Source: a virus | IMG/VR virus record: IMGVR_UViG_3300025853_009406 | Location: 1-64,000 of that record | Reading direction: 5' to 3' (one strand) | DNA length: 64,000 bases | Shown here: piece by piece, positions 1 through 48,398 of the stretch | How the letters are laid out: every line of letters starts with the position of its first letter | Position numbering within the stretch: position 1 is the stretch's first letter | Notes under the pieces: model-generated | Told to the model about the DNA's origin: nothing | The model's database searches: none | What the model saw: the letters and a program-made list of their open reading frames with translations, nothing else | Position numbers and translations under genes: made by a program

Positions 1-517
1 TAGCATCTTCGCCAGCAATAGTAATGGTGTTATCAGTTACTGTGGTGTCAATACCTTCACCACCAGTAAACGTAAGAGTATCAGTGAGAAGAGAAACTGA
101 GTCATTAGTTCCACTATCTGCACCGACTGTCAGAGATGCAACAGCATCAATGAATGAAAGATTACCTGATCCATCTGTTGCCAGAACCTGAGATGCAGAT
201 CCATCAGTTGCTGGAAGTGTGAGATCCAGATCAGATGCCATTGTAGCAGGAGCAATCAGACGAACTTTGTTAGTTCCGTTATCTGCATCCTCATAAAAAT
301 TAACAGCACCTGGACCAGCAGTCGTTGCTCTAGAAAGGATCTGAAGACTTGCTAAGAATGTTTCAGCATTGGCAATAGATGTTCCAGCACCTGTACCATT
401 GGCACCGCTATCGCCGACATATAGTGATTTATCAGATAAATCTAATACTGGTTCTCCCTCATAAAAAATACTTCCAGGGACTCCTGTACCTCTTTTGAGT
501 TGTAATCTATTTGCCAT
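1..517 (-). CDS. Tail-fibre-like structural protein, N-terminal part (runs off the window start)
   Basis: Manual translation from ATG at 517: MANRLQLKRGTGVPGSIFYEGEPVLDLSDKSLYVGD..., typical fibre N-terminus; late promoter upstream. Confidence 0.7.
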   Translation of the reverse strand, partial: MANRLQLKRGTGVPGSIFYEGEPVLDLSDKSLYVGDSGANGTGAGTSIANAETFLASLQILSRATTAGPGAVNFYEDADNGTNKVRLIAPATMASDLDLTLPATDGSASQVLATDGSGNLSFIDAVASLTVGADSGTNDSVSLLTDTLTFTGGEGIDTTVTDNTITIAGEDA

Positions 518-32847: not shown

Positions 32848-35800
32848 TTACTCTCCTCCGAGTGCTAGAATGAATGGGGTTAGGGTTGAGAACAACGACT
32901 TGGAATATGCCGTTCCAGAGATAGTACCAGTATTCTGGTTAATGATTAGTCCGTCACCAATCTTGAAGTTACCTGACTGATCAGTACTGGTGAATACGAC
33001 CAGACCACCATTCAGATTCACAGTTTCATTTTCAGCAATAGTAACGCCACCATTCTGAGGAAGTGCAGCTTTTACATCGATACCAGAACCAATGTATTCA
33101 AATGCATGAGATGATGCGAGAACTCTACTTTGCTTGTAGAACTCAACTTCCATTCCAGCGGTTACTTCATATGGAACCTGTGCGTCAAGGGTGATTGTTG
33201 AGATTCCTGCAGAAGGATATGTTGCCTTATTAACTGTGTAGTAACTTGGATACATATCAATCACGATTCTTGCAGGTGTTCCTCCACCTATAGGAGCACC
33301 GATTGTAACGGTTGGAGGAACAATGAATCCTCTACCGCTAGAAACAACTTCAACTCCAGTTACCTGACCATTCTCGACTGTTGCGATTGCCTGTGCAGGT
33401 ACGCCCCAAGCAGTTGTTGGATTACCAATAGTAACTTCTGGAGTACTGGTATAACCAGAACCTTTAGTTGTTACTCTAATCTTGTCAACCTGATAGTATA
33501 ACTTATCAAACACAGTTACTTGACCGTCGAATGGTCTCTGTGGATTAATCTGTACTGTACCACCAGAAGTATAGAAGTGTGGGAATGGACCTTTACCTAC
33601 GTTAGCGGTAAAGTCTGTTGAAGTTGTAGCAACCGAGCATGTGGTTGGTTGACCCTTAACGATTGCGTCAGTTGCGATACCAATGAGGTTATCAATAGTA
33701 TCTTGAACATTTTGGCAAGCGTCTGGATCGTTATTGGAGTTAAGAACAGGATCAGGAGCGAGCTTGAAGTTCTTGCTATTTAGTTGATTATTGATAGCAA
33801 GTTGCATATAGTCAGCAGATGCACGGAAAGCAGTTACGGTTTCAACTTCTTCACCGATTAGTGCATCAGAGAGTGGCTTGCCAGTCTCTTGATCGAAGTA
33901 GTAGTTGGTTGCACTAATGATATTTTTATTAGTGAAGTTAAGAAGATCATTCTTAACTGCATCAACGATGTAACCAATGTCTCTTCTGCACTTAGTCTCT
34001 TGATCTAGGAGTCTACCTGCATTAGGTAAGAAGTTATCTAGTTCAGTTAGAGTACCGATTCCGATTACAGTTGTAACGATTCCGATTCTATTGTCAACTA
34101 CGTCCTGAACATCTTGACAGGTTTCAGGATTACCCGATCTTGTATAAGTGATTACTGGACCAACACCGTAGTTTGCACCACCGAAGGATAGAGTTAGATC
34201 CTTAGTATAGAGTTGGTTAGTTAGAGCACCCTTCATGTAATCACCTGCCTTACCGAAAGCAGTTACAGATTCAGATCTTTCACCATACAGACCTGGAGTT
34301 AGTGGTTGACCAGTTCCAGTGAAGTATTGCTTAGTGAAGTCTCTTGAATAAGTATTACCTCCGAGGAATACGTCAGTTGAAACAGCGTCAACTAGGTATC
34401 CAATGTCTCTTGCACACTTATAACCACCTGGGGAAGAAGTAGTTCCGAGACCAACGAAGTCATCTGCATCAGTTCCATAACCAACTGTCTGACCAAACTC
34501 GCCTGGTTGTAAGTAGAAATAACCATTGTTGATACCGTATGTTCCATCATAAAGTGCTGCAGTGTTACCTGCGGCAACTACGACTGTTACAATACCAACT
34601 AGGTTTTCAATGTTTGCCTGAACATCTGCACAGGTTTCACCATTACCCGAAGCATTATACTGGATATTACCACCAGCACCATTGTAAGATGCAGGACCGA
34701 AGGTTAAAGTTAGATCCTTAGAATATAGTTGGTTAGTTACTGCTCGCTTCATGAGAGGTTCAGCAGCTTCAAATGCGGTTAGTGAAGGTGCGAGTTCACC
34801 GTCTAGTCCGCCTCTGATTACTGATCCATCAGCGTAGTAGTATTGCTCAGAGAATCCTCTGGAATATCTATTACCACCAGTAAACACGTCAGTTGATACT
34901 GCATCAACTAAGAATCCAAGGTCTCTAGCACACTTGTAACCGCCAGGGTTCTCAGTGGTTCCGATACCAGTTCCTCTGTCGAAGATTCCAGTATCATAAG
35001 TTAGAGCGCCGAATGAAGCAGTGCTTCCAGCACCAAGAGAAACAGTTACAATACCAACCAGAGTATCAATGTTATCCTGAACATCTAAGCAGGAATTCTC
35101 GTTTCCAGACTGTAGAACAGGGATAGAGGAACCGATACCATAGTACTGAGGACCAGATGAAATACCAAGATCCTTAGTATAGAGTTGGTTAGTGATTGCA
35201 TCCTTCATCCACTCACCGCCACCCATTAAACCAACGATTGTTGGAGCAACTTCATTTCCATCAATGTGAATAGCACCAGACTGGTTGAAGTATTGCTTGG
35301 TAAACTCTTGTGAGTATCTGTTACCAGAAGTGAATACGTCGGTTGCGACGGCATCAACAAAGAATCCAACGTCTCTTGCACACTTATAACCACCTGGAGT
35401 GTTAGTTGTACCAACACCAACTGATTGATCAAATAGACCAGTGTTGAGTGGGAATGTAATAGAAGCAGTGCTTCCAGCACCAAGAGAAGATGTTACGATT
35501 CCAGCGAGAGTATCAATGGTATCTTGAATATCCTGACATGCAGTTGAAGAAGTGTTAGCAACGTCTGAACCCTCATTTCCTGCATTATATGTTGGGTTAC
35601 CAACTGAGATTGTTAGATCAGAGTATGTAGCGCCAACTAAAGAGTTAGTAATTGCATTGAGCATGTACCCTCTTGCTTGATCAAAGACATAGAGTGACTC
35701 ATCCATCTCACCCTGTAGACCATTAGAGATTAGTGAACCATTTTCAAAATATTGGAAGGTGAACTCAGAAGCATAAGTATTACCACCAGTTAGTACATCA

Positions 35801-38800
35801 AGAGCAACTGCATCAATGAAGAATCCAGTATCTCTCTTACACTTCTCTTCAACTGAAGCGAAGTTGAATGAACTGAATAGTGGGTTATTGACTGCATCGG
35901 TGAACGCTGCGCCAACGATTACCTCCTTATTGAGTTGAATCATTCTGTAAGCATCATAATATCTTGATCTTCCGTTAGACTGTGCGTCACCTGGGAAGTA
36001 GAATGCATCATAAGCATCATAACCTTGAGCAATAGAACCGATAGATCTATCGATAACTTCTTGCTTGTTCTGTTGGATTAGACGATATGAATCGAAGTAT
36101 CTGTACTGCTCATCATCTCTCTCATCAAATCCAGTGTTAAGAGTTGGGAGTTGTGAAGTGGTTCCTAGACCAACTGCAACAGTTGCAATACCAACTAGGT
36201 TCTCGATTAGGTCTTGAACATCTGCACAAGATGATGCGCTTCTGTTATCATTAGTGACGTAATCGGGAGAAATAGTTAGGTCTTGAGCATTGAGTTGGTT
36301 AGTTACTGCTCCTCTTGCGAGATCGCCAAGTGCAGTGAATGCGGTAACTGACTCAGACTCTTCACCGAGTAGACCATCAGAGATTGGATTACCATTACCA
36401 TCGAAGTATGATAGAGCGAATCCAACAACATTATCGTTAGAACCTGCCCATACATCCTCTGCGAGTGCGGAGTGTAGATAACCAAGATCTCTAGCACACT
36501 TAAATCCGCCTGGGGATGCTACAGTACCAACACCCGACTGGTTAAAGTAACCAACATTTAATGTTGGAAGACTATTGGTTGATCCAAATCCTACTGCAGT
36601 GGTAACCACTCCAACTAGGTTTTCAATGTTTGCTTGGACATCAACACAAGCTTCAGCATTACCAGAAGGTAGTACAGGGATGGAAGAACCAGCGCCTGCA
36701 TAAATCGCTTTACCTGGTGAGATTGTTAGATCTTTGACGTTGAGTTGGTTAGTGATTGCCTTTCTTGCATAGAATCCTGCGTAATCGAAGGAAACAACAC
36801 TTGGAGACTCTTCGCCAGTCAGACTTGCTGTTGGTGAACCTGCCCCATCAAAGTAGAATAGAGTGAAATCTCTTGTGTAGCTATTACCACCTGTAAATAC
36901 ATCAGTTGCAACGGCATCAACAAGGTAACCAATATCTCTTGCACACTTAGTACCACCAGGAGATAGAGTACCGAAGTCTTCCATCTGGAGTGATAACTTG
37001 GTGAATGGATCAGTGTTGACTACAAAGTTACCAGTATTGAGAGCATCGCCAGAAGGTAGTTGTGTAGTGGTTCCGAGACCAACTGCAACTGTTACGATAC
37101 CAACTAAGTTCTCAATAGCAGACTGAACATCAATACAAGCATTAGCATTACCAGAGATTAACACAGGTAGTTTAGTATCATCGGTACCGTATCTAGCAGT
37201 ACCAGAAGAAATGCCAACATCCTTAGAGTTAAGTTGGTTGGTAACTGCCTTCTTCATGAAGGTCTCTGCAGAATCAAATGCTACAAGTGATTGTGCTTCT
37301 TCACCAACCAGACCATTGCTGATTGGAAGTCCAGCGCCATCAAAGTATTGAAGAACGAACTCTCTAGAATAGCTGTTGCCTCCAGTAAATACGTCGGTTG
37401 AAACTGCATCAACTAAGAATCCAATATCTCTAGCACACTTGAATCCACCTGGGGATGAAGTAGTACCAATACCAGATTGTGAGAAGTAACCATCGTTGAT
37501 TGATGTAGGAACGTCTGCGAATGTTGCGGTTGTACCAATAGAAACAACTGCAGTAACAACTCCAACGAGAGTATCAATGTTATCCTGAACATCAATACAT
37601 GCTGCTGCATTACCCGAAGGAAGAACTGCAATATCTCCACCAGCACCACCATAAGTAGCAGCACCAGAAGAAATGCCAACATCCTTTCTATAAAGTTGGT
37701 TGGTGATTGCGTCCTTCATGAACTCACCAGCAGCAATGAATGCAGTGTTTGAAGGAGCTTCTTCGCCTAGTAGACCTGTCTTAATCCATCCACGATAGGT
37801 TGGTTCATATGACTTGACAGAATCGATTGTTGTTCTTACGAATGTATGTGCAGACTGTGGAAGATGCTTGATTGCTCCAGCGATTGCACTTACAAATGTA
37901 TGTGCTGTTTGTGGTTCATGTCTAATAGCATTACACTCAGCACGTACAAATGTGTGTACAGAACCTGATGCAGAACCAGCATTTCCAACATTAACTGTGA
38001 ATGTACCAGTCTGCCTCTCAAGACCGTTTGCAGATGCACTTACAAATGTGTGAGTTCCAGTGTAGTCAGCAGCACCAATATTAATCTTGAAGGTGTTATC
38101 AGTCTTCTCACTGATCTGTAACCAGCGACCTGATGGATAATCATATCCAGCGCGTGGATATGACTTAGATACTGTGTTACCATCTAGTTCGCAAGTGAAG
38201 GTTAGTGAACCATCATCAAGTTTAATATAATCTTCATTAGCAAATCCATGAGAAGCAACTGTTAGAACAACATCTCCAGTTGCAGGGTCATAAGTTGCTG
38301 CAGTTACAGTATGAGTGGAAACGCCAACTTCATTGATCGCAGTTGCGATACCTGAGATTGGATTGCCTGCTGCAGGATATGCATGTTCAGTAGCATTTCC
38401 ATCCTGGTCACAAGTGAAGATCATTGACTCATCTTCAATAATGACTGCACGACCAACGCCAAGACCATGCTGACCAACAGTAACAGTTAGATCACCAGTT
38501 GCTGCATTATAAGTAGCAGCAGTTGGATCAAAGTACTTGTTAGGACCAGACTTACCTACATTAACGGTTAGAGAATCATCTGTAACACCAGTAATCTTGA
38601 TTGATCTACCTGCGTATGGATCGATTCCTGGACGTGGATATGTCTTCTGTGCTTGATTATTATCAAATGCACAAGTGAAGGTGAAAGAGTTGTCCTCGAT
38701 GATAACACCCTCTCCAACACTCAGTGAGTGCTCACCAACAGTAACGGTGAAGTCACCAGTTGCAGGATCATATGTTGCTGCAGTTGGGTTGAATGACCAG

Positions 38801-41800
38801 TCAGTACCAGAAGCACCAACATTAACAGTCACTGATGTTGCACTAGTTCCAGTAATCGTTAGAGGAGAGTTATATGCAACTTGACCTTTTGCTGGTAGAG
38901 AGTGCTCACTCTTATTGCCATCCATTGCACAAGTGAAAGTGAAGCTTTCCTTGTCTAGGAAGATAACATCAGATGTTTGTAGTGGGTGATCTGCACCAAC
39001 AATCATCGTGAAGTCGCCAGTTGCAGGATTATAAGTTGCAGAAGTTGGTGTCCAACCTGCTGCCTCTTGGAAGTTATTTTGTAGATAACCAATAGCGTAG
39101 GAGTTACCTCCAGTAAATACGTCAGTTGAAACAGCGTCAACTAAGAATCCAAGATCTCTAGCACACTTAAGTCCACCAGGAGAATAGGAGCTAATACCAA
39201 GTGCCTGGTTAAACTCACCTACGTCTAGAGTTCCTTGACTTGTAGGTAGTTCTGAAGTTGTACCGATACCTACAGCGTAAGTAACAATTCCGACTAGTGC
39301 ATCAATACTATCCTGAACATCTAGACATGCATTTGCATTACCAGATCTTAGAACCTCAATGTTAGGACCGCCACCTCCGAAGTATGCTTTACCCGAAGAA
39401 ATGCCAACATCCTTATTGAAGAGTTGGTTAGTTACTGCATCCTTCATGTATTCGCCAGCAGATTCAAATGCGACGACTGAAGGACCTTCTTCACCTAGAA
39501 GACCATTAATGATTGGAGCAGCATTATCAAAATACTGCAATGCAAATCCATCTGCATAGTAGTTACCAGCAGTGAATAGGTCAGTTGAAATAGAATCGAT
39601 GAAGAAACCAAGGTCTCTTGCACACTTATAACCACCTGGTGATGAAGTAGTACCAACACCAACAGACTGGTTGAAGTAACCATAGTTGATAGTTGCCGTT
39701 ACATCAGATGCAGTTGCAGTGGTTCCTAGACCAACAACTGAAGTAACGATACCGATTAGGTTATCAATGTTGTTCTGAACGTCAATACATGAAGCTTCGT
39801 TACCAGATCTTAGAACAGCAATATCACCTCCACCACCACCATAAGAAGCAGGACCAGATGAAATACCAAGATCCTTAGTATAGAGTTGGTTAGTGATTGC
39901 GTCCTTCATGAACTCACCAGCTCCGATGAATCCATATAGAGACTGTAGTTCTTCTTCGTATAGACCCTCACTGATTGGATTACCAGTTCCATCATCGAAG
40001 TACTCAAGGATAAACTCTCTAGAATAGAGGTTACCGCCAGTAAATACGTCAGTTGAAACTGAATCGATTAGGAATCCGATGTCTCTAGCACACTTGAATC
40101 CTCCTGGAGTTGCAGTGGTTCCGATACCTGCTTGGTTGAAGATACCGAGATTTCTTGTACCAGCGAAGGAGGTTGTATTTGCCTCAGTAATAGCATCAGT
40201 TACGATTGTAACTAGGTTTTCAATGTTTGTTTGTACGTTAGCACAAGCACCAGTATCAGTATTTGAAGATGCTAGAGGATCAGTTGTAATACCAACATCA
40301 GTATAGGTTAGGTTGTTAGCAATAGCTAACTTCATTCTGTCTCTTGCTTCATTGAAAGCGTAGATGGATTGAACCTCTTCGCCACCAATACCATTATCAT
40401 AGATAGCATCATTCTCAAAATATTGTAGAGTAAAGTCTTGAGAATATGCGTTACCACCAGTTAGAATGTCAAGAGAAATGGCATCAATAAAGTAACCAAG
40501 GTCTCTCTTACACTTAGTTTCAGTGCTAAGGATACCAGGATACTGAGTTCTTGTAGCATTCCAAGAACCATTAATAATCTCATCTTTGTTTTTCTGGATC
40601 AGACGATATGAATCATAGTATCTGGAACGTGCATTTGTCTCTTCATCACCAGGGAATACCCAATCAGTTGGATAAAGATCATAGTTAACAGTGATGTTAC
40701 CAATAGATCTATCAATAATTTCTCTTCTGTTCTGTTGGATTAGACGATATGAATCGAAGAATCTTGATCTTTCATTAGTTTGAAGATCGTTAGGGAAGTA
40801 GAAATCAGGATAACTGATAGAGATAGATGCTAGTGACTTATCAATAATCTCCTGTCTATTCTGTTGGATTAGACGATATGAATCATAGTATCTGGATCTT
40901 GCTGTAGTTTGAGAATCGCCTGGGAAATAAAAGTCTGGATGCTCTAATGAAATAGCAGCAAGTGACTTATCAATAACTTCTTGTCTGTTCTGCTGGATTA
41001 GGCGATATGAATCGAAATATCTTGAGCGAGCATTGGTCTCAAGATCTCCAGGGAAGTAGAATTGATCATACTTAGTTGCAATAGAAGCAAGTGACTTATC
41101 AATAATCTCTTGCTTGTTCTCATTGATTAAACGATATGCATCATAGAATCTTGATCTTGCATTGGTCTCTGTATCGCCAGGGAAGAAGAAATCGTCATAG
41201 TTGTCATAATCTAATGAGATAGAAGCAAGGGACTTATCAACAATTTCTTGCTTGTTCTGAAGGATTAGACGATAAGAATCATAGAATCTAGATCTATCAG
41301 TCGTCTCTGCATCATCAGGGAAGTAGAAATCTGGGTGATATAGACCGATAGTCGCAAGAGACTTATCAATGATTTCATCTTTATTTGAGTTAATAAGATT
41401 AAATGAATCTTTAAATCTGTTTCTTGAAGTATCTGGGAAGTAGAAATCTGGGTGGCCAATAGCAATCTGTGCTAGCGACTTATCAATAACTTCCTGTCTG
41501 TTCTTCTGGATCAGACGATATGAATCAAAGAATCTTGATCTTGCGTTTGTCTGATTATCATTAGGGAAATAGAAATCAGGATGCTCAACAGCAATCTCTG
41601 CAAGTGATCTATCAATGATCTCTTGCTTATTATGTTGGATTAGACGATATGAATCAAAGAATCTTGATCTTGAGTTAGTCTCTTCTTCGCCTGGGAATAC
41701 AAAATCAGGATGCTTATAAGAGATAGAAGCAAGTGCCTTGTCAAGAATCTCAGTTTTGTTTGCTTCGATTGACTCGCTAGCATCACTATATCTACCAGGA

Positions 41801-42897
41801 GCAACAGACTTAACTTCAAAAATAGTACCGTAGTTACCTGTTGGATATAGAAGTGTCTCCTGACCACCGTCTGAAGTGCAAGTAAATCCTAAACCTGCAA
41901 TGGTAACACCCATACCAACACTTAGTTCGTGTTGTCTGTCGAGTGTGAATGAAGTAACTCCTGTTACATGATCATAAACAGCATCAACAACATTCATTAC
42001 AGGGGCGTTTGCATCAATCTTAATCTCAAAAGTAGATGCATCTACACCTGCATTTGATGTTACGACACCAACATATTTGAGAGGTCCGACGCCATCAGCG
42101 ACAAGACCGAAGTTGCCGAATGATGAGTTAGAGTTGGTAAGGTCGCAAGCACCACCTGACTGGCAGAGGATTGCGGTATCTGAACAGATGGTGAACATGG
42201 ACACCAACTGAGCGAATGCTTCGTTGAAGATTTTAGCACCTAAACCACCTGGGTTAATCTGGGTATAGGAGTCAAGAACCATGGACTTAATAGGTCCAAT
42301 GGCATACTTACCATCAATGTTTAGACCAATAGTGCCTGGAATGAAGTTTGTACAGTTCTGAATATATGGCGATTGGTCAATATAAGGAACAACTTCTGGG
42401 TTAAATGTAACGATTGCGCCATCGGATTTTTGTGCTGGTCCAATGAATGACATCTCTGCGATGTAGCATCCATTGTCTAACCAGAACAAGTCTCCTTGAT
42501 TTTTTGGTGTAACCGTAACTTCACGAAGTGAGTCGCCAACGACTGACACATTGTCGGGAAGTACGATTGGGTTATCTTCTAGATAAACTCCAGCACTAAT
42601 TTTAATAACAGTTCCTGGGACAGACTCTGCGACGGCAGCTTTAATGGTTCTTTTTGCGTCTCCGAGTTTCTTACCTGTGTTGTTGTCGTTACCATCTTGT
42701 GTTACATATAGGACATTAATAACGGTCGCACCAGCACCAACTCTTACAATGTCTGTTCCAATACCTGGCCTATTTCTGGCCATGTAAAGTTCGCCATCAT
42801 TAGTATTAATGGCCATTTCTCCTAGAGGGAGATCAGAGACTGTAGGTTTTTTGTTAGGTACTGAAGACCTTTTGAATCTAATTTTAGGACTTGCCAT
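32848..42897 (-). CDS. Giant putative virion protein with pectin-lyase-like N-terminal region and 12 nested phycobiliprotein-like domains
   Basis: Fibre-type N-terminus (IRFKRSS..P..L..GE.AIN), YVTQDGND/GDSLR/SPYIQNCT; 12x KC(A/K/R)RD; 12x C-x-(D/N)-(V/I)-Q; 12x D-x4-I-x2-N-x3-I. Confidence 0.8.
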   Translation of the reverse strand: MASPKIRFKRSSVPNKKPTVSDLPLGEMAINTNDGELYMARNRPGIGTDIVRVGAGATVINVLYVTQDGNDNNTGKKLGDAKRTIKAAVAESVPGTVIKISAGVYLEDNPIVLPDNVSVVGDSLREVTVTPKNQGDLFWLDNGCYIAEMSFIGPAQKSDGAIVTFNPEVVPYIDQSPYIQNCTNFIPGTIGLNIDGKYAIGPIKSMVLDSYTQINPGGLGAKIFNEAFAQLVSMFTICSDTAILCQSGGACDLTNSNSSFGNFGLVADGVGPLKYVGVVTSNAGVDASTFEIKIDANAPVMNVVDAVYDHVTGVTSFTLDRQHELSVGMGVTIAGLGFTCTSDGGQETLLYPTGNYGTIFEVKSVAPGRYSDASESIEANKTEILDKALASISYKHPDFVFPGEEETNSRSRFFDSYRLIQHNKQEIIDRSLAEIAVEHPDFYFPNDNQTNARSRFFDSYRLIQKNRQEVIDKSLAQIAIGHPDFYFPDTSRNRFKDSFNLINSNKDEIIDKSLATIGLYHPDFYFPDDAETTDRSRFYDSYRLILQNKQEIVDKSLASISLDYDNYDDFFFPGDTETNARSRFYDAYRLINENKQEIIDKSLASIATKYDQFYFPGDLETNARSRYFDSYRLIQQNRQEVIDKSLAAISLEHPDFYFPGDSQTTARSRYYDSYRLIQQNRQEIIDKSLASISISYPDFYFPNDLQTNERSRFFDSYRLIQQNRREIIDRSIGNITVNYDLYPTDWVFPGDEETNARSRYYDSYRLIQKNKDEIINGSWNATRTQYPGILSTETKCKRDLGYFIDAISLDILTGGNAYSQDFTLQYFENDAIYDNGIGGEEVQSIYAFNEARDRMKLAIANNLTYTDVGITTDPLASSNTDTGACANVQTNIENLVTIVTDAITEANTTSFAGTRNLGIFNQAGIGTTATPGGFKCARDIGFLIDSVSTDVFTGGNLYSREFILEYFDDGTGNPISEGLYEEELQSLYGFIGAGEFMKDAITNQLYTKDLGISSGPASYGGGGGDIAVLRSGNEASCIDVQNNIDNLIGIVTSVVGLGTTATASDVTATINYGYFNQSVGVGTTSSPGGYKCARDLGFFIDSISTDLFTAGNYYADGFALQYFDNAAPIINGLLGEEGPSVVAFESAGEYMKDAVTNQLFNKDVGISSGKAYFGGGGPNIEVLRSGNANACLDVQDSIDALVGIVTYAVGIGTTSELPTSQGTLDVGEFNQALGISSYSPGGLKCARDLGFLVDAVSTDVFTGGNSYAIGYLQNNFQEAAGWTPTSATYNPATGDFTMIVGADHPLQTSDVIFLDKESFTFTCAMDGNKSEHSLPAKGQVAYNSPLTITGTSATSVTVNVGASGTDWSFNPTAATYDPATGDFTVTVGEHSLSVGEGVIIEDNSFTFTCAFDNNQAQKTYPRPGIDPYAGRSIKITGVTDDSLTVNVGKSGPNKYFDPTAATYNAATGDLTVTVGQHGLGVGRAVIIEDESMIFTCDQDGNATEHAYPAAGNPISGIATAINEVGVSTHTVTAATYDPATGDVVLTVASHGFANEDYIKLDDGSLTFTCELDGNTVSKSYPRAGYDYPSGRWLQISEKTDNTFKINIGAADYTGTHTFVSASANGLERQTGTFTVNVGNAGSASGSVHTFVRAECNAIRHEPQTAHTFVSAIAGAIKHLPQSAHTFVRTTIDSVKSYEPTYRGWIKTGLLGEEAPSNTAFIAAGEFMKDAITNQLYRKDVGISSGAATYGGAGGDIAVLPSGNAAACIDVQDNIDTLVGVVTAVVSIGTTATFADVPTSINDGYFSQSGIGTTSSPGGFKCARDIGFLVDAVSTDVFTGGNSYSREFVLQYFDGAGLPISNGLVGEEAQSLVAFDSAETFMKKAVTNQLNSKDVGISSGTARYGTDDTKLPVLISGNANACIDVQSAIENLVGIVTVAVGLGTTTQLPSGDALNTGNFVVNTDPFTKLSLQMEDFGTLSPGGTKCARDIGYLVDAVATDVFTGGNSYTRDFTLFYFDGAGSPTASLTGEESPSVVSFDYAGFYARKAITNQLNVKDLTISPGKAIYAGAGSSIPVLPSGNAEACVDVQANIENLVGVVTTAVGFGSTNSLPTLNVGYFNQSGVGTVASPGGFKCARDLGYLHSALAEDVWAGSNDNVVGFALSYFDGNGNPISDGLLGEESESVTAFTALGDLARGAVTNQLNAQDLTISPDYVTNDNRSASSCADVQDLIENLVGIATVAVGLGTTSQLPTLNTGFDERDDEQYRYFDSYRLIQQNKQEVIDRSIGSIAQGYDAYDAFYFPGDAQSNGRSRYYDAYRMIQLNKEVIVGAAFTDAVNNPLFSSFNFASVEEKCKRDTGFFIDAVALDVLTGGNTYASEFTFQYFENGSLISNGLQGEMDESLYVFDQARGYMLNAITNSLVGATYSDLTISVGNPTYNAGNEGSDVANTSSTACQDIQDTIDTLAGIVTSSLGAGSTASITFPLNTGLFDQSVGVGTTNTPGGYKCARDVGFFVDAVATDVFTSGNRYSQEFTKQYFNQSGAIHIDGNEVAPTIVGLMGGGEWMKDAITNQLYTKDLGISSGPQYYGIGSSIPVLQSGNENSCLDVQDNIDTLVGIVTVSLGAGSTASFGALTYDTGIFDRGTGIGTTENPGGYKCARDLGFLVDAVSTDVFTGGNRYSRGFSEQYYYADGSVIRGGLDGELAPSLTAFEAAEPLMKRAVTNQLYSKDLTLTFGPASYNGAGGNIQYNASGNGETCADVQANIENLVGIVTVVVAAGNTAALYDGTYGINNGYFYLQPGEFGQTVGYGTDADDFVGLGTTSSPGGYKCARDIGYLVDAVSTDVFLGGNTYSRDFTKQYFTGTGQPLTPGLYGERSESVTAFGKAGDYMKGALTNQLYTKDLTLSFGGANYGVGPVITYTRSGNPETCQDVQDVVDNRIGIVTTVIGIGTLTELDNFLPNAGRLLDQETKCRRDIGYIVDAVKNDLLNFTNKNIISATNYYFDQETGKPLSDALIGEEVETVTAFRASADYMQLAINNQLNSKNFKLAPDPVLNSNNDPDACQNVQDTIDNLIGIATDAIVKGQPTTCSVATTSTDFTANVGKGPFPHFYTSGGTVQINPQRPFDGQVTVFDKLYYQVDKIRVTTKGSGYTSTPEVTIGNPTTAWGVPAQAIATVENGQVTGVEVVSSGRGFIVPPTVTIGAPIGGGTPARIVIDMYPSYYTVNKATYPSAGISTITLDAQVPYEVTAGMEVEFYKQSRVLASSHAFEYIGSGIDVKAALPQNGGVTIAENETVNLNGGLVVFTSTDQSGNFKIGDGLIINQNTGTISGTAYSKSLFSTLTPFILALGGE

Positions 42898-43541: not shown

Positions 43542-44108
43542 TTAATATTCCCCACCATCAAAATCGATACGGTTATCAAGATCTGTGTCAAGTTGATCAA
43601 TAAAGACTTCTGGTAGACCTGGATTCTCGGGTTCTTCAACAGCAGCAGAAAGAACGTTGTCTGGGTTTTCCGCTCTCCACTTATCGAGTAGTTCATTATA
43701 CATGAGAGTGTATCTATCTTTAGCATCATCGACATCAGTATCGACAAGATCGGATAGACGAAGACCACTAAGTTTATCAAGGATAGCTTGCAGAAGCTCG
43801 TTAGATGAGTCTAGTTGTAAGTTAGATCTTAAGTATGCTAAGAAATCTTCAGGTAATCCTGGTTGAGTAGTTTCAGTTAAAGCAGCAGCACTAAAAATCT
43901 CATCGGGGTTAACTGATTCATATTTTTCAGTATTCTCATTAAACATTAACACATATTTATCCAATGTGTTGTCTATGTCAACATCCTGAAGATCGGAAAG
44001 TTTCCTTGCCATTACTATTCCTGATTTAGTAACTACTTTAATATTTCCTAATGGGAGTTTACTTTTTACATTAAATAGTTTTTTTCTTACTCTGACTTTG
44101 ATTGTCAT
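43542..44108 (-). CDS. Hypothetical structural protein with internal duplication
   Basis: Two copies of LSDLxDxD...Y.LM.N....NPD....AA.......PGLPE.F; ends DGGEY. Confidence 0.75.
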   Translation of the reverse strand: MTIKVRVRKKLFNVKSKLPLGNIKVVTKSGIVMARKLSDLQDVDIDNTLDKYVLMFNENTEKYESVNPDEIFSAAALTETTQPGLPEDFLAYLRSNLQLDSSNELLQAILDKLSGLRLSDLVDTDVDDAKDRYTLMYNELLDKWRAENPDNVLSAAVEEPENPGLPEVFIDQLDTDLDNRIDFDGGEY

Positions 44109-44437
44109 ATGGTAGTATCCTCGACAATTATTGTTCCAGTTACAACTCTAGTGACAAAATCTAACTCACTATTTTGAATAAACACATCAAAATAGTTTCT
44201 TCCAGAGCTCAACTCCGTTGTCATGGATCTCCCCATGGAGATATTTACCTCTGCATCTGCTGTAGTAATACCAACAACAAAACTATGCGACTTAGTTGCT
44301 GTTGGATGTTTTTTGATCTTTGCAAATGCAGTAGTATATAGCAAGTTGAGCATGTCGCCGTCATCACCAGTTAGATAGAATGATGCTTCAAAATCTGCAC
44401 CTTTTTCTATTGTTAGGTTAACAACAGATGCACTCAT
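44105..44437 (-). CDS. Small baseplate/adaptor-like hypothetical protein
   Basis: NLTIEKGADF...GRNYFDV...RVVTG. Confidence 0.7.
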   Translation of the reverse strand: MSASVVNLTIEKGADFEASFYLTGDDGDMLNLLYTTAFAKIKKHPTATKSHSFVVGITTADAEVNISMGRSMTTELSSGRNYFDVFIQNSELDFVTRVVTGTIIVEDTTI

Positions 44438-47181: not shown

Positions 47182-47706
47182 TTAGTCAATTTGTTTGTCG
47201 AACTCAAACATCCCATACTCTGATCCCCATACCATTTTTTTAGTTACAGGATCATATCCCCTATCAATAACTCTATAAGTATTTTTTCTCAATTCAGACA
47301 TGGTAAATAAGAACGATTCTTTACCATTTTTATTTACCATACATTCACACCCCATGATCATACCATAATAAACACCATTCTGTTTAGTAAAAATACAATC
47401 ACAGTTCTCATTCTTTTCTAAATCATCTTCAGTGATTTTATCTATATCAGTGAAATATAAAAATCTTTTACCATCCTTCACTTTATAACTACTAACTATT
47501 AGTTTATCTTCATACTGATTTATCTCCAGAACAAACTGTCTATAAGGAGGTTGTTTGCGAACAGAATATTTCTGTTCTCCATAAATCATATTATTACTTA
47601 ATAACTCATGACGTAAACTAATCTGAGAATATTGTGAAGGGTATGAAAATGCTTGTTTTCGATTATGAAAAGATCCAAGTAACCATTCTGTAAACTCCTC
47701 AATCAT
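47182..47706 (-). CDS. cpcT: T-type phycobiliprotein lyase (CpcT/CpeT family)
   Basis: G.F.NRKQA..P, YGEQ..PYRQ, C.C.F, DRGYD..VWGS..G.FEF. Confidence 0.9.
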   Translation of the reverse strand: MIEEFTEWLLGSFHNRKQAFSYPSQYSQISLRHELLSNNMIYGEQKYSVRKQPPYRQFVLEINQYEDKLIVSSYKVKDGKRFLYFTDIDKITEDDLEKNENCDCIFTKQNGVYYGMIMGCECMVNKNGKESFLFTMSELRKNTYRVIDRGYDPVTKKMVWGSEYGMFEFDKQID

Positions 47707-48398
47707 TCAGTACTACCTCTTCTTTGATGACGTATTAATGTAGAAAATAATACCTTACCAATAGCAGATATTAGATTACCTTCAATTTCATTAAAGACAT
47801 TCATATTTAGTTTGAATGCTAGATTAGCTTCTTTGATAATCTCATCGATTTCATTTTGATCGAAAGGAAGAGTATCTAATACATCTCTATAATCTCCCTT
47901 AAAAACTTTTTCATCTTTAATATCTTTAAAAATATAAAAGTTCATCCCAACATCAGGAACTTTTAAAGCAGATTGAGCAATATTTTTCAATACTTGTCCA
48001 CCAGAAAGATCGCCAATATACCTAGTATAATGATGTGCAATCAATAAGTCTTGATTTTCATTAGATACCTCTTTAATCCTGGCAACATATTCTTTGCAAG
48101 ATTTTGTTTGAGTAATCCTTTCTTTCCAATCATATCCTAGATAATATTCTAAATCTTTTTCTAAAGATTTTTTTCTGAAGAGTTGTGGAAAATAAATGTT
48201 TGACACAATCATATCATCTTTGTGTCTTTCAAACTCTTCTTCCATCGCGGAATAGATATGGTACAAGTCTGATAGTAATCTTACATAAGATTTCTTTTCA
48301 ACCACACCTTTGAGAAAACAGGTAATGAAACCTGTATTCTCTGCCATAGTGTGAGATTTTTTAGTACCTTCTCTTATTTGTTGTGATAGGTTAGACAT
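47703..48398 (-). CDS. ho1: Ferredoxin-dependent heme oxygenase
   Basis: REGTKKSHTMAENTGF, AHHYTRYIGDLSGGQ, EANLAFKLN. Confidence 0.96.
   Translation of the reverse strand: MSNLSQQIREGTKKSHTMAENTGFITCFLKGVVEKKSYVRLLSDLYHIYSAMEEEFERHKDDMIVSNIYFPQLFRKKSLEKDLEYYLGYDWKERITQTKSCKEYVARIKEVSNENQDLLIAHHYTRYIGDLSGGQVLKNIAQSALKVPDVGMNFYIFKDIKDEKVFKGDYRDVLDTLPFDQNEIDEIIKEANLAFKLNMNVFNEIEGNLISAIGKVLFSTLIRHQRRGSTE

What the first reader, a model, noticed from the sequence alone, without database searches (positions are those of the whole stretch)
33560..41990. Matryoshka architecture: half-domains balance like nested brackets
Seen: order along the chain is 10 N-halves, 7 C-halves, 2 N-halves, 5 C-halves (12 and 12, never more closings than openings). 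Only the two innermost units (..YPGILSTETKCKRD, ..FASVEEKCKRD) are contiguous. The whole array also sits inside a split beta-domain (AVYDHVTG..FTC..YP..FEV before; FTANVG..PHFYTSGG after). Inference: each domain was inserted into the same loop of the previous one, so the chain runs out and back as a stalk that branches at domain 3 into 7-domain and 2-domain arms.
Basis: partly seen in the sequence, partly recalled or inferred. Interest (0 to 1): 0.82.

Follow-up and report, generated by a model that had tools for sequence, protein, structure and literature searches.

The report
Nested pigment-protein-like domains in cyanophage fibre
A giant tail-fibre-like protein of a marine cyanobacterial virus appears to be built by inserting copies of one domain, a relative of the host's light-harvesting pigment proteins, into each other about ten levels deep, deeper than the six levels a 2026 survey of protein structures gives as its most complex example.

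Summary
One 3349-aa ORF (32848-42897, minus strand) carries 12 N-halves and 12 KCxRD C-halves in the order 10N 7C 2N 5C, which is a balanced bracket word.

The two halves belong to one phycobiliprotein-like globin domain. Pfam PF00502, PDB phycocyanin alignments that span both halves, and Foldseek top hits all agree. The domain is split at one loop, profile positions about 35-40.

Among 45 complete ORFs (44 homologous loci plus the window), 42 are balanced under strict calling and 44 under permissive calling. The one exception looks like a fragment.

AlphaFold2 models of natural two-layer and three-layer nests are confident (pTM 0.89 and 0.85). N-half and C-half divergence is congruent under nested pairing (r=0.73; 15 of 50,000 permutations reach it).

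The array sits inside a split beta domain. A second nest of four beta domains sits inside globin unit 7, and a 77%-identical relative lacks that nest. Maximum depth is 11-12 levels. A 2026 survey names six levels as its example of complex nesting.

Limits:
- No model coordinates could be read.
- The complementation test in trans gave only weak support.
- Automated calls are unbalanced in 46 of 150 distant representatives, mostly tandem arrays and fragments.

This scan has found the same family before on other genomes. Eight literature searches found no description of it.

The parts
32848..42897 (-). Whole gene, 3349 aa, tail-fibre-like virion protein
   Evidence: ORF list and translation. PHROG tail-fibre families phrog_4527, phrog_5342 and phrog_17885.
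41986..42897 (-). N-terminal region, aa 1-304, tail-fibre N-terminus with a beta-helix-like part
   Evidence: phrog_17885 'tail fiber protein' covers aa 5-296, E 2e-170.
41800..41985 (-). Opening part of the outer beta domain (beta0), aa 305-366
   Evidence: Aligns with the four internal beta units. Conserved directly before N1 in L002, L017 and L042.
40531..41799 (-). Ten N-halves N1-N10 (helices A and B of the globin-like domain), aa 367-789
   Evidence: Motif scan, N-half HMM, and N-only matches to profile positions 1-28..35.
40105..40635 (-). Tip unit G10 (N10+C1, contiguous), aa 755-931
   Evidence: Pfam PF00502 best stretch aa 762-828. Phycocyanin alpha residues 42-112 align across both halves. 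Full profile match 1-158.
36157..40515 (-). C-halves C1-C7 (helices E to H, each starting KCxRD), aa 795-2247. They close N10 down to N4.
37786..39051 (-). Second nest, aa 1283-1704: four beta-domain openings, then four HTFV-type closings. Inserted in C4 (unit G7) at profile position 76.
   Evidence: Sequence. C4 is split exactly at profile position 76. The nest is absent from the 77%-identical relative P0002.
35863..36117 (-). N-halves N11 and N12, which open the two-domain arm, aa 2261-2345
35452..35976 (-). Tip unit G12 (N12+C8, contiguous)
   Evidence: Full profile match 2-159. Inner domain of the AF2 model.
33649..35844 (-). C-halves C8-C12, aa 2352-3083. They close N12, N11, N3, N2 and N1.
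33550..33630 (-). Closing strands of the outer beta domain (..FTANVG..PHFYTSGG), aa 3090-3116
   Evidence: Matches the closing strands of contiguous beta4. Conserved after the last C-half in L002, L017 and L042.
32851..33549 (-). C-terminal region, aa 3117-3349
   Evidence: phrog_3442 covers aa 3117-3346, E 1.7e-123, function unknown.

Best explanation
The middle 2800 residues of this cyanomyovirus fibre protein form a tree of 17 nested domains.

The repeated unit is a globin-like domain related to phycobiliproteins. Its N-half is helices A and B. Its C-half is helices E to H and begins with the Cys84-type motif KCxRD. The phycobiliprotein X/Y arm is absent. In 10 of the 12 copies the loop between helix B and helix E holds further complete domains. 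Each N-half therefore completes its fold with the bracket-matched C-half that returns hundreds to more than 2500 residues later.

Topology:
- beta0 holds G1, which holds G2, which holds G3.
- G3's loop holds two arms in series: G4 to G10, and G11-G12.
- G7 carries a second insertion, four nested beta domains, in its next loop.
- Greatest depth is 11 (at G10) to 12 (at beta4).

Consequences (inferred). The chain runs out and back, so the N- and C-terminal regions of the protein meet at the base. The three contiguous units (G10, G12, beta4) are the far tips. The array is a protrusion whose length changes in whole-domain steps.

Shown: the balanced order, the homology of the halves to one fold, balance in relatives, confident models of nested fragments, and congruent divergence of paired halves.

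Inferred: the actual contacts, rod shape, oligomeric state, and role as a reach or spacer element of the tail.
For: (a) One fold, two halves.
- The Pfam PF00502 whole-protein score is 36.4 bits against a cut-off of 22.2, with the best stretch at aa 762-828 spanning N10 and C1.
- phmmer of the contiguous unit hits phycocyanin alpha residues 42-112 across both halves. KCKRD aligns on KCARD. E is 0.007.
- The 35-row profile A5 gives 33 PDB hits at E<=1, all phycobiliproteins, best E 0.011.
- Foldseek of the AF2 model lists phycobiliprotein or phycobilisome entries, plus one entry titled 'Bacterial fluorescent protein', throughout the printed hit list. Probability is 1.00 on most rows and TM to target 0.54-0.74 for the single-domain hits.

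(b) One insertion site. The same profile matches in full twice. It matches its positions 1-28..35 alone 9 times and its positions 31..40-159 alone 10 times. In relatives, hmm_from for hits containing the KC position is bimodal: 1-16 or 18-41.

(c) Balance in relatives.
- 42 of 45 complete ORFs are balanced under strict calling and 44 of 45 under permissive calling, across 12 architectures.
- Among the 150 best of 1035 representative proteins, those with depth 3 or more are 26 balanced and 4 not.

(d) Models.
- The NNCC arm (aa 2261-2632, 35-row alignment) has pLDDT 88 and pTM 0.89. The outer N-half blocks score 83/96/95.
- The NNNCCC nest (aa 664-1220, 17 rows) has pLDDT 80.5 and pTM 0.85. The outermost N-half blocks score 77/92/90.
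- A BFVD model of an S-WAM2 tail protein superposes over 269 columns at 2.7 A, TMq 0.61.

(e) Complementation in trans, N11 (48 aa) against C9 (148 aa). The verdict is weak support: score 0.49, best of 3 controls 0.01. That mark was reached by 58 of 80 solved complexes and 2 of 110 mismatched pairs. At 0.60 or under it was reached by only 7 of those 80 and by both mismatches that passed. The runs agree in at least 83% of contacts and the partner's pLDDT is at least 56. Because phycobiliprotein structures are solved, the pass may reflect likeness to them.

(f) Congruence. Window Mantel r is 0.727, reached by 15 of 50,000 permutations. G9 and G11 are close in both halves: they are mutual nearest neighbours by N-half, and G9 is G11's nearest neighbour by C-half. 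Across 20 proteins with innermost units excluded, 0 of 5000 permutations reach the observed sum.

(g) A natural indel. P0002 has the same N9-U-C6-N-U-C4 order (U = contiguous N+C unit). It lacks the 422-aa beta nest, which leaves C4 uninterrupted.
Against: - No coordinates or error maps of the models could be read. Which N-half touches which C-half is therefore inferred from confidence values, not seen.
- The complementation test gave only weak support.
- Single-sequence similarity to phycobiliproteins is marginal. PDB E-values are 0.007-0.011 and Foldseek E is about 0.1. In Pfam no single stretch passes on its own (the 'stretches' column is 0).
- Automated calls are unbalanced in 46 of the 150 representatives, with 68 unmatched C and 22 unmatched N tokens among 1428 C tokens.
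- Many of those are short fragments. Others are long tandem arrays in which a diverged N part is missed; I checked this by eye only in P0011, P0017 and P0085.
- A recurrent 'C U3 N U10' order in several tandem-array proteins is not explained.
- The proteins in the congruence tests are related, so the permutation counts are not true probabilities.
- Fibres are usually oligomers, and pairing between chains is not excluded.
Confidence: 0.8

Rival explanations
1. Complementation between chains. The fibre is an oligomer, and N-halves of one chain complete C-halves of another chain (domain swapping), so the domains are real but the intrachain 'out and back' hairpin is not.
For: Tail fibres are commonly trimers (general knowledge, not tested here). 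An N-half and a C-half given as separate chains were placed together with weak support: score 0.49, best control 0.01. So pairing in trans is feasible in principle.
Against: Swapping would need equal totals only, not the prefix rule. Yet the order is a proper bracket word in 44 of 45 complete ORFs. Single-chain models of two- and three-layer nests are confident, with pTM 0.89 and 0.85. The tip units are contiguous, as expected for hairpin turns.
Confidence: 0.1
2. Two independent repeat families: an array of helical hairpins (N) and an array of four-helix modules (C) that fold separately. Equal counts would then be a by-product of duplication history.
For: N-halves and C-halves form separate runs in the sequence. 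DNA repeats of 60-86% identity exist within each type.
Against: Contiguous N+C units align as one domain to phycocyanin and to PF00502. One profile matches as a whole, as its first part only, or as its last part only, with a sharp boundary. Balance holds in 12 different architectures. Paired halves diverge together.
Confidence: 0.05
3. The nesting is real in evolution but the present fold is shifted in register: each N-half packs on a neighbouring layer's C-half rather than on its bracket partner.
For: All layers are similar (N-halves 12-74% different), so the chemistry would allow promiscuous pairing. The contacts could not be read.
Against: Bracket pairing gives the best congruence: 0.727 against 0.434 and 0.536 for the two ordered alternatives. 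The short 'neck' linkers between layers (about 12-25 residues) favour the nearest closure.
Confidence: 0.05

Closest known systems
Phycobiliproteins (Pfam PF00502; CpcA/CpcB, CpeB, ApcA/B)
   Same: The globin-like fold is shared, with Foldseek TM to target 0.54-0.74. The sequence aligns across helix B to helix E. The Cys84-type C-x-R-D motif is kept in all 12 copies here and in 1322 of 1428 copies in 150 relatives.
   Different: There is no X/Y arm: the alignments start near phycocyanin residue 39-42, and the N-half has only two helices. The domain is part of a virion fibre, and it is split by whole domains. Bilin binding has not been tested.
ApcE (core-membrane linker) alpha-APC domain with its PB-loop
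   Same: A phycobiliprotein domain that tolerates an extra 50-70-residue loop inside it and still binds bilin (PMC11789067, passages read). I recall the loop lying between helices B and E, which would be the same site as here. That position is from memory and was not in the passages I read. ApcE (7eyd_09) also appeared among the Foldseek hits.
   Different: ApcE carries a loop, not a folded domain, at a single level, in a cellular antenna protein.
Si3 insertion of cyanobacterial RNA polymerase beta-prime (nested domains)
   Same: Recursive insertion of domains into one another. A 2026 survey of 2.7 million classified domains names its 'six-level nested structures' as the example of complex nesting (PMC13114784, abstract and passages read).
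   Different: The fold and the host protein differ. Depth is six levels there, against 10 globin levels here (11-12 counting the beta domains). Here the recursion makes most of a fibre protein, and its depth varies between relatives (1 to 10).
Tandem ('beads on a string') arrays of the same domain in other giant cyanophage proteins
   Same: The same domain with the same motif. 51 of the 150 best representatives are pure tandem arrays of contiguous units, and one protein has up to 34 units.
   Different: In those proteins the units follow each other instead of sitting inside each other.

Membership tests
Phycobiliprotein fold (PF00502) | Significant match to the family profile | tested here: met
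   The whole-protein score is 36.4 bits against a cut-off of 22.2, E 6.3e-9. No single stretch passes alone. The A5 profile hits only phycobiliproteins in the PDB, 33 hits at E<=1, best 0.011.
Phycobiliprotein fold (PF00502) | Globin-like helical fold (helices A, B, E, F, G, H) | tested here: met
   The AF2 model (pLDDT 88) has phycobiliproteins as its best PDB matches, with probability 1.00 and TM to target 0.54-0.74.
Phycobiliprotein fold (PF00502) | Cys84 with Arg86 and Asp87 (C-x-R-D) at the start of helix E | tested here: met
   12 of 12 copies in the window. Invariant in the 35-row alignments. 1322 of 1428 copies in relatives.
Phycobiliprotein fold (PF00502) | N-terminal X/Y helix pair used for alpha/beta pairing | tested here: not met
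   Alignments begin at phycocyanin residue about 39-42. The N-half has two helices only.
Phycobiliprotein fold (PF00502) | Covalently bound bilin | not testable with these tools
   No bilin ligand is offered by the tools. cpeT and ho1 lie about 4.3 kb upstream, but they are common in cyanophages (recalled).
Nested domain insertion (A1-B1-C-B2-A2 type) | The host domain's sequence is interrupted by a complete domain, and both host parts are still present | tested here: met
   The profile matches as a whole, as its first part or as its last part, with sharp boundaries. C4 is cut exactly at position 76. Relative P0002 lacks that insert.
Nested domain insertion (A1-B1-C-B2-A2 type) | The two parts of the host domain pack together in 3-D | tested here: inconclusive
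   Model confidence is high (pTM 0.89 and 0.85), and the test in trans gave weak support (0.49 against 0.01). No coordinates could be inspected.
Phage tail fibre / tail protein | Similarity to annotated tail-fibre families and a place among tail genes | tested here: met
   PHROG tail-fibre families at E 0 to 2e-170. Relatives in 260 cyanophage records are annotated as tail fibre, tail protein, baseplate wedge or structural protein. One neighbour has a sub-threshold LtfC-like match, 20.7 bits against a cut-off of 27.
Phage tail fibre / tail protein | Presence in the virion | not testable with these tools
   No proteomic data were examined.

The most novel reading that the evidence does not exclude
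The nested tree is a working biliprotein. The 12 helix-E cysteines (C-x-R-D), and perhaps also the 12 second cysteines (AC-DVQ), would carry bilins. Those bilins would be made and attached with the help of the neighbouring ho1 and cpeT genes. The virus particle would then carry a pigmented fibre that absorbs or senses light.
Probability: 0.12. Interest if true: 0.95.

Novelty: new variant of a known kind. Interest (0 to 1): 0.8.

Why it matters
Domain-in-domain insertion is known, but it is usually one level deep. A 2026 survey of 2.7 million classified domains names six levels as its example of complex nesting (PMC13114784). Here one domain is inserted into its own loop ten times over, with a second domain type nested by the same rule. 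The depth varies from 1 to 10 among relatives.

That makes this family a natural system for three questions:
- How a chain folds when the two parts of a domain lie up to about 2600 residues apart.
- How fibre length can evolve in whole-domain steps that must stay balanced.
- How a host light-harvesting fold was turned into a building block of a virus tail.

The bilin-site motif is kept almost without exception. That makes a simple and striking question testable: does the virion carry pigment?

Tried and rejected
- DNA search against GenBank phages gave only two short hits at 73% and 81% identity. There is no close sequenced relative in that collection.
- My first tokenising wrongly showed imbalance, for example 12 N against 13 C in L001. 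C4 was counted twice because of its insert, and the N-half HMM was too narrow. Iterated HMMs and head/tail rules corrected this.
- The N-half HMM alone fails on distant tandem-array proteins (48 of 150 balanced). A whole-unit HMM raised this to 104 of 150. The remaining 46 are not all explained.
- The beta domain has no known family. phmmer against the PDB gave one chance-level hit at E 0.11. The protein atlas gave only unnamed viral clusters, with a weak lead to E1_FCCH at score 0.92.
- DNA repeats within the gene are 60-86% identical. I therefore rejected recent slippage or an assembly artefact as the source of the pattern.
- I considered, and did not pursue, a test of whether the domain co-occurs with cpeT across phages.

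Literature. Searches found no paper describing phycobiliprotein-like or nested domains in cyanophage fibres. One search found the survey PMC13114784, of which I read the abstract and passages. One search found PMC11789067, of which I read passages. Supplementary files were not opened.
Full report
What is there. The finding lies inside one intact ORF, window 32848-42897 on the minus strand, 3349 aa. PHROG profiles place it among cyanophage tail-fibre and virion proteins. The record is a 116,740-base virus contig, estimated 61% complete. A motif scan finds 12 N-half cores and 12 KCxRD motifs in the order 10 N, 7 C, 2 N, 5 C. Only N10-C1 and N12-C8 are contiguous.

The halves are parts of one known fold. 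Pfam gives a single family for the whole protein, PF00502 (phycobilisome protein). The score is 36.4 bits against a cut-off of 22.2, and the best stretch (aa 762-828) spans N10 and C1. No single stretch passes on its own. The contiguous unit aligns with phycocyanin alpha residues 42-112. The N-half lies on helix B and KCKRD lies on the Cys84 motif KCARD (E 0.007). A 35-row profile of contiguous units (A5) hits 33 PDB sequences at E<=1. All are phycobiliproteins, best E 0.011. These E-values are marginal one by one, but they agree with each other and with the fold search below.

One insertion site. I scanned profile A5 over the phage record.
- It matches in full twice, at the two tips.
- It matches its first 28-35 positions alone 9 times.
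- It matches positions 31..40 to 159 alone 10 times.
- All matches are in this gene.
- N1 is too diverged for this profile, but the N-half HMM finds it.
- One C-half (C4) is cut exactly at profile position 76.
In relatives, the profile start of matches that contain the KC position is bimodal: 1-16 or 18-41. Compared with phycocyanin, the break lies in the stretch between helix B and Cys84 (alignments).

Balance in relatives. A scan of viral contigs gave 78 loci. After iterating the HMMs, I sorted these 78 loci plus the window.
- 45 ORFs are complete and carry at least one C-half.
- 31 ORFs run off a contig end.
- 3 loci have no such domains.
Of the 45 complete ORFs, 42 are balanced bracket words under strict N calling (E<=0.01) and 44 under permissive calling (E<=1). 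The exception, L028, is a 967-aa piece resembling the longer L019 type with its first N missing. Twelve distinct architectures occur, among them NNNNCCCC, NNCCNNCC, NCNNNCCC and NNCNNNNCCCCNCC. Three apparent exceptions had a weak N-half at exactly the expected place.

A wider search of 1.84 billion representative proteins found 1035 relatives at E<=0.001. I analysed the best 150.
- 104 of the 150 are balanced.
- 51 are pure tandem arrays of contiguous units.
- Of the 99 with split halves, 53 are balanced and 46 are not.
- Among those with depth 3 or more, 26 are balanced and 4 are not. One of the four has a single unmatched C, and three are fragments of 329-858 aa.
- Most other failures are long tandem arrays. 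By eye, in the three I inspected (P0011, P0017, P0085), every KCxRD is preceded by an N-like helix that the HMM missed.
- A recurrent 'C U3 N U10' order is unexplained, and I list it as evidence against a universal rule.

Structure prediction. Only natural contiguous fragments were used.
- The two-layer arm N11-N12-C8-C9 (aa 2261-2632, 35-row alignment) gave pLDDT 88 and pTM 0.89. The outer N-half blocks scored 83/96/95.
- The three-layer nest N8-N10/C1-C3 (aa 664-1220, 17 rows) gave pLDDT 80.5 and pTM 0.85.
The one other title is a chain called 'Bacterial fluorescent protein'. TM to target is 0.54-0.74 for the single-domain hits.
- No listed chain covers more than one domain's worth of the model (TM to query at most 0.32), so no listed solved structure shows such a nest.
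- Against predicted viral structures, a tail protein of phage S-WAM2 superposes over 269 columns at 2.7 A.
- I could not read coordinates, so the pairing itself is inferred.

Complementation test. The separate-chain test of N11 against C9 gave weak support: score 0.49, best of 3 controls 0.01. That mark was reached by 58 of 80 solved complexes and 2 of 110 mismatches. At 0.60 or under it was reached by only 7 of those 80 and by both mismatches that passed. The runs agree in at least 83% of contacts and the partner's pLDDT is at least 56. Likeness to solved phycobiliproteins may contribute to the pass.

Congruence of halves. In the window protein, the distance matrices of N-halves and C-halves correlate at r=0.727 under bracket pairing. 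15 of 50,000 random pairings reach this value. Parallel pairing gives 0.434 and simple reverse pairing 0.536. G9 and G11, the layers just below the two tips, are close in both halves: they are mutual nearest neighbours by N-half, and G9 is G11's nearest neighbour by C-half. This fits an origin of the short arm as a copy of the long arm's end. Across 20 proteins with innermost units excluded, the summed r is 17.9, against a permuted mean of -0.06 (sd 2.6). None of 5000 permutations reaches it. The proteins are related, so this is an effect size rather than a probability.

The beta domains follow the same rule. Before N1 lies a beta opening (aa 305-366). After C12 lie its closing strands (..FTANVG..PHFYTSGG). 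Both parts align with the contiguous unit beta4, and the split is conserved in L002, L017 and L042. Inside C4, at profile position 76, lie four beta openings followed by four HTFV-type closings. The representative P0002 (2927 aa, about 77% identical) has the same globin order but lacks these 422 residues, which leaves C4 whole. In other relatives, globin nests sit inside beta openings and closings (for example L013: NNCC BB NNCC hh, where B is a beta opening and h a closing) or inside the beta-helix-like N-terminal part (L008).

Topology and comparison. Bracket matching gives this tree: beta0(G1(G2(G3([G4(G5(G6(G7{G8(G9(G10)); beta1(beta2(beta3(beta4)))})))][G11(G12)])))). That is 17 domains and three tips, with depth 11 at G10 and 12 at beta4. 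Among the 150 representatives the next deepest globin nests are 7 and 6. A 2026 survey of 2.7 million classified domains names six-level nesting in cyanobacterial RNA polymerase as its example of complex organisation (PMC13114784, abstract and passages).

How it probably works (inferred). The chain runs out through the N-halves and back through the C-halves, closing one domain per step. The protein's two ends therefore meet at beta0, next to the tail-attachment region, and the array projects from it. Length can change only by balanced steps. One way to keep balance would be recombination that exchanges an inner nest between layers, with a left crossover in an N-half and a right crossover in the matching C-half. 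The 60-86% identical DNA repeats could serve as substrate for this. I did not test that idea.

Range and context. The domain is confined to cyanophages among 50,697 phage records. It occurs in 260 records, all labelled Synechococcus, Prochlorococcus, cyanophage or marine. That fits capture of the fold from the host. C-x-R-D is kept in 1322 of 1428 copies, and cpeT and ho1 lie about 4.3 kb upstream. Whether bilin is bound is open.

Novelty. Eight literature searches found no description of this domain, or of its nesting, in phage fibres. This scan has noted the same family on other genomes before.

Noticed in passing
window 47182-48398 (minus strand): cpeT (PF06206, E 4e-36) and heme oxygenase ho1 (PF01126, E 1.2e-78) overlap by 4 bases. 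They lie about 4.3 kb upstream of the fibre gene on the same strand.
   Followed up: partly
window 33646-40520 (the C-halves): Every C-half has a second conserved cysteine (..AC.DVQ..) just before its last helix. It is invariant in the 35-row alignments (C194 and C343 of A1). It could be a second bilin site, one partner of a disulfide, or purely structural.
   Followed up: no
P0011, P0012, P0014, P0017, P0020: Other giant proteins (up to 6382 aa) carry 20-34 copies of the same domain as plain tandem arrays, not nests. Several show an odd 'C-only ... N-only' order such as C U3 N U10 that bracket rules do not explain.
   Followed up: partly
L019:7166-19930 and relatives: There is a second insertion site in the globin-like domain, near profile positions 77-102 and before the last helix. 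Whole units are inserted there, and the tail of the host C-half follows later.
   Followed up: partly
L008:7391-12961: In this relative the nests appear to sit inside the beta-helix-like N-terminal domain. In the window protein the corresponding stretch of that domain is uninterrupted.
   Followed up: no
I did not examine it.
   Followed up: no
window 44105-44437 (minus strand): A 110-aa ORF has a weak LtfC-like beta-sandwich match (PF23926, E 6e-4, below the curated cut-off). This is in keeping with a tail-fibre gene neighbourhood.
   Followed up: no
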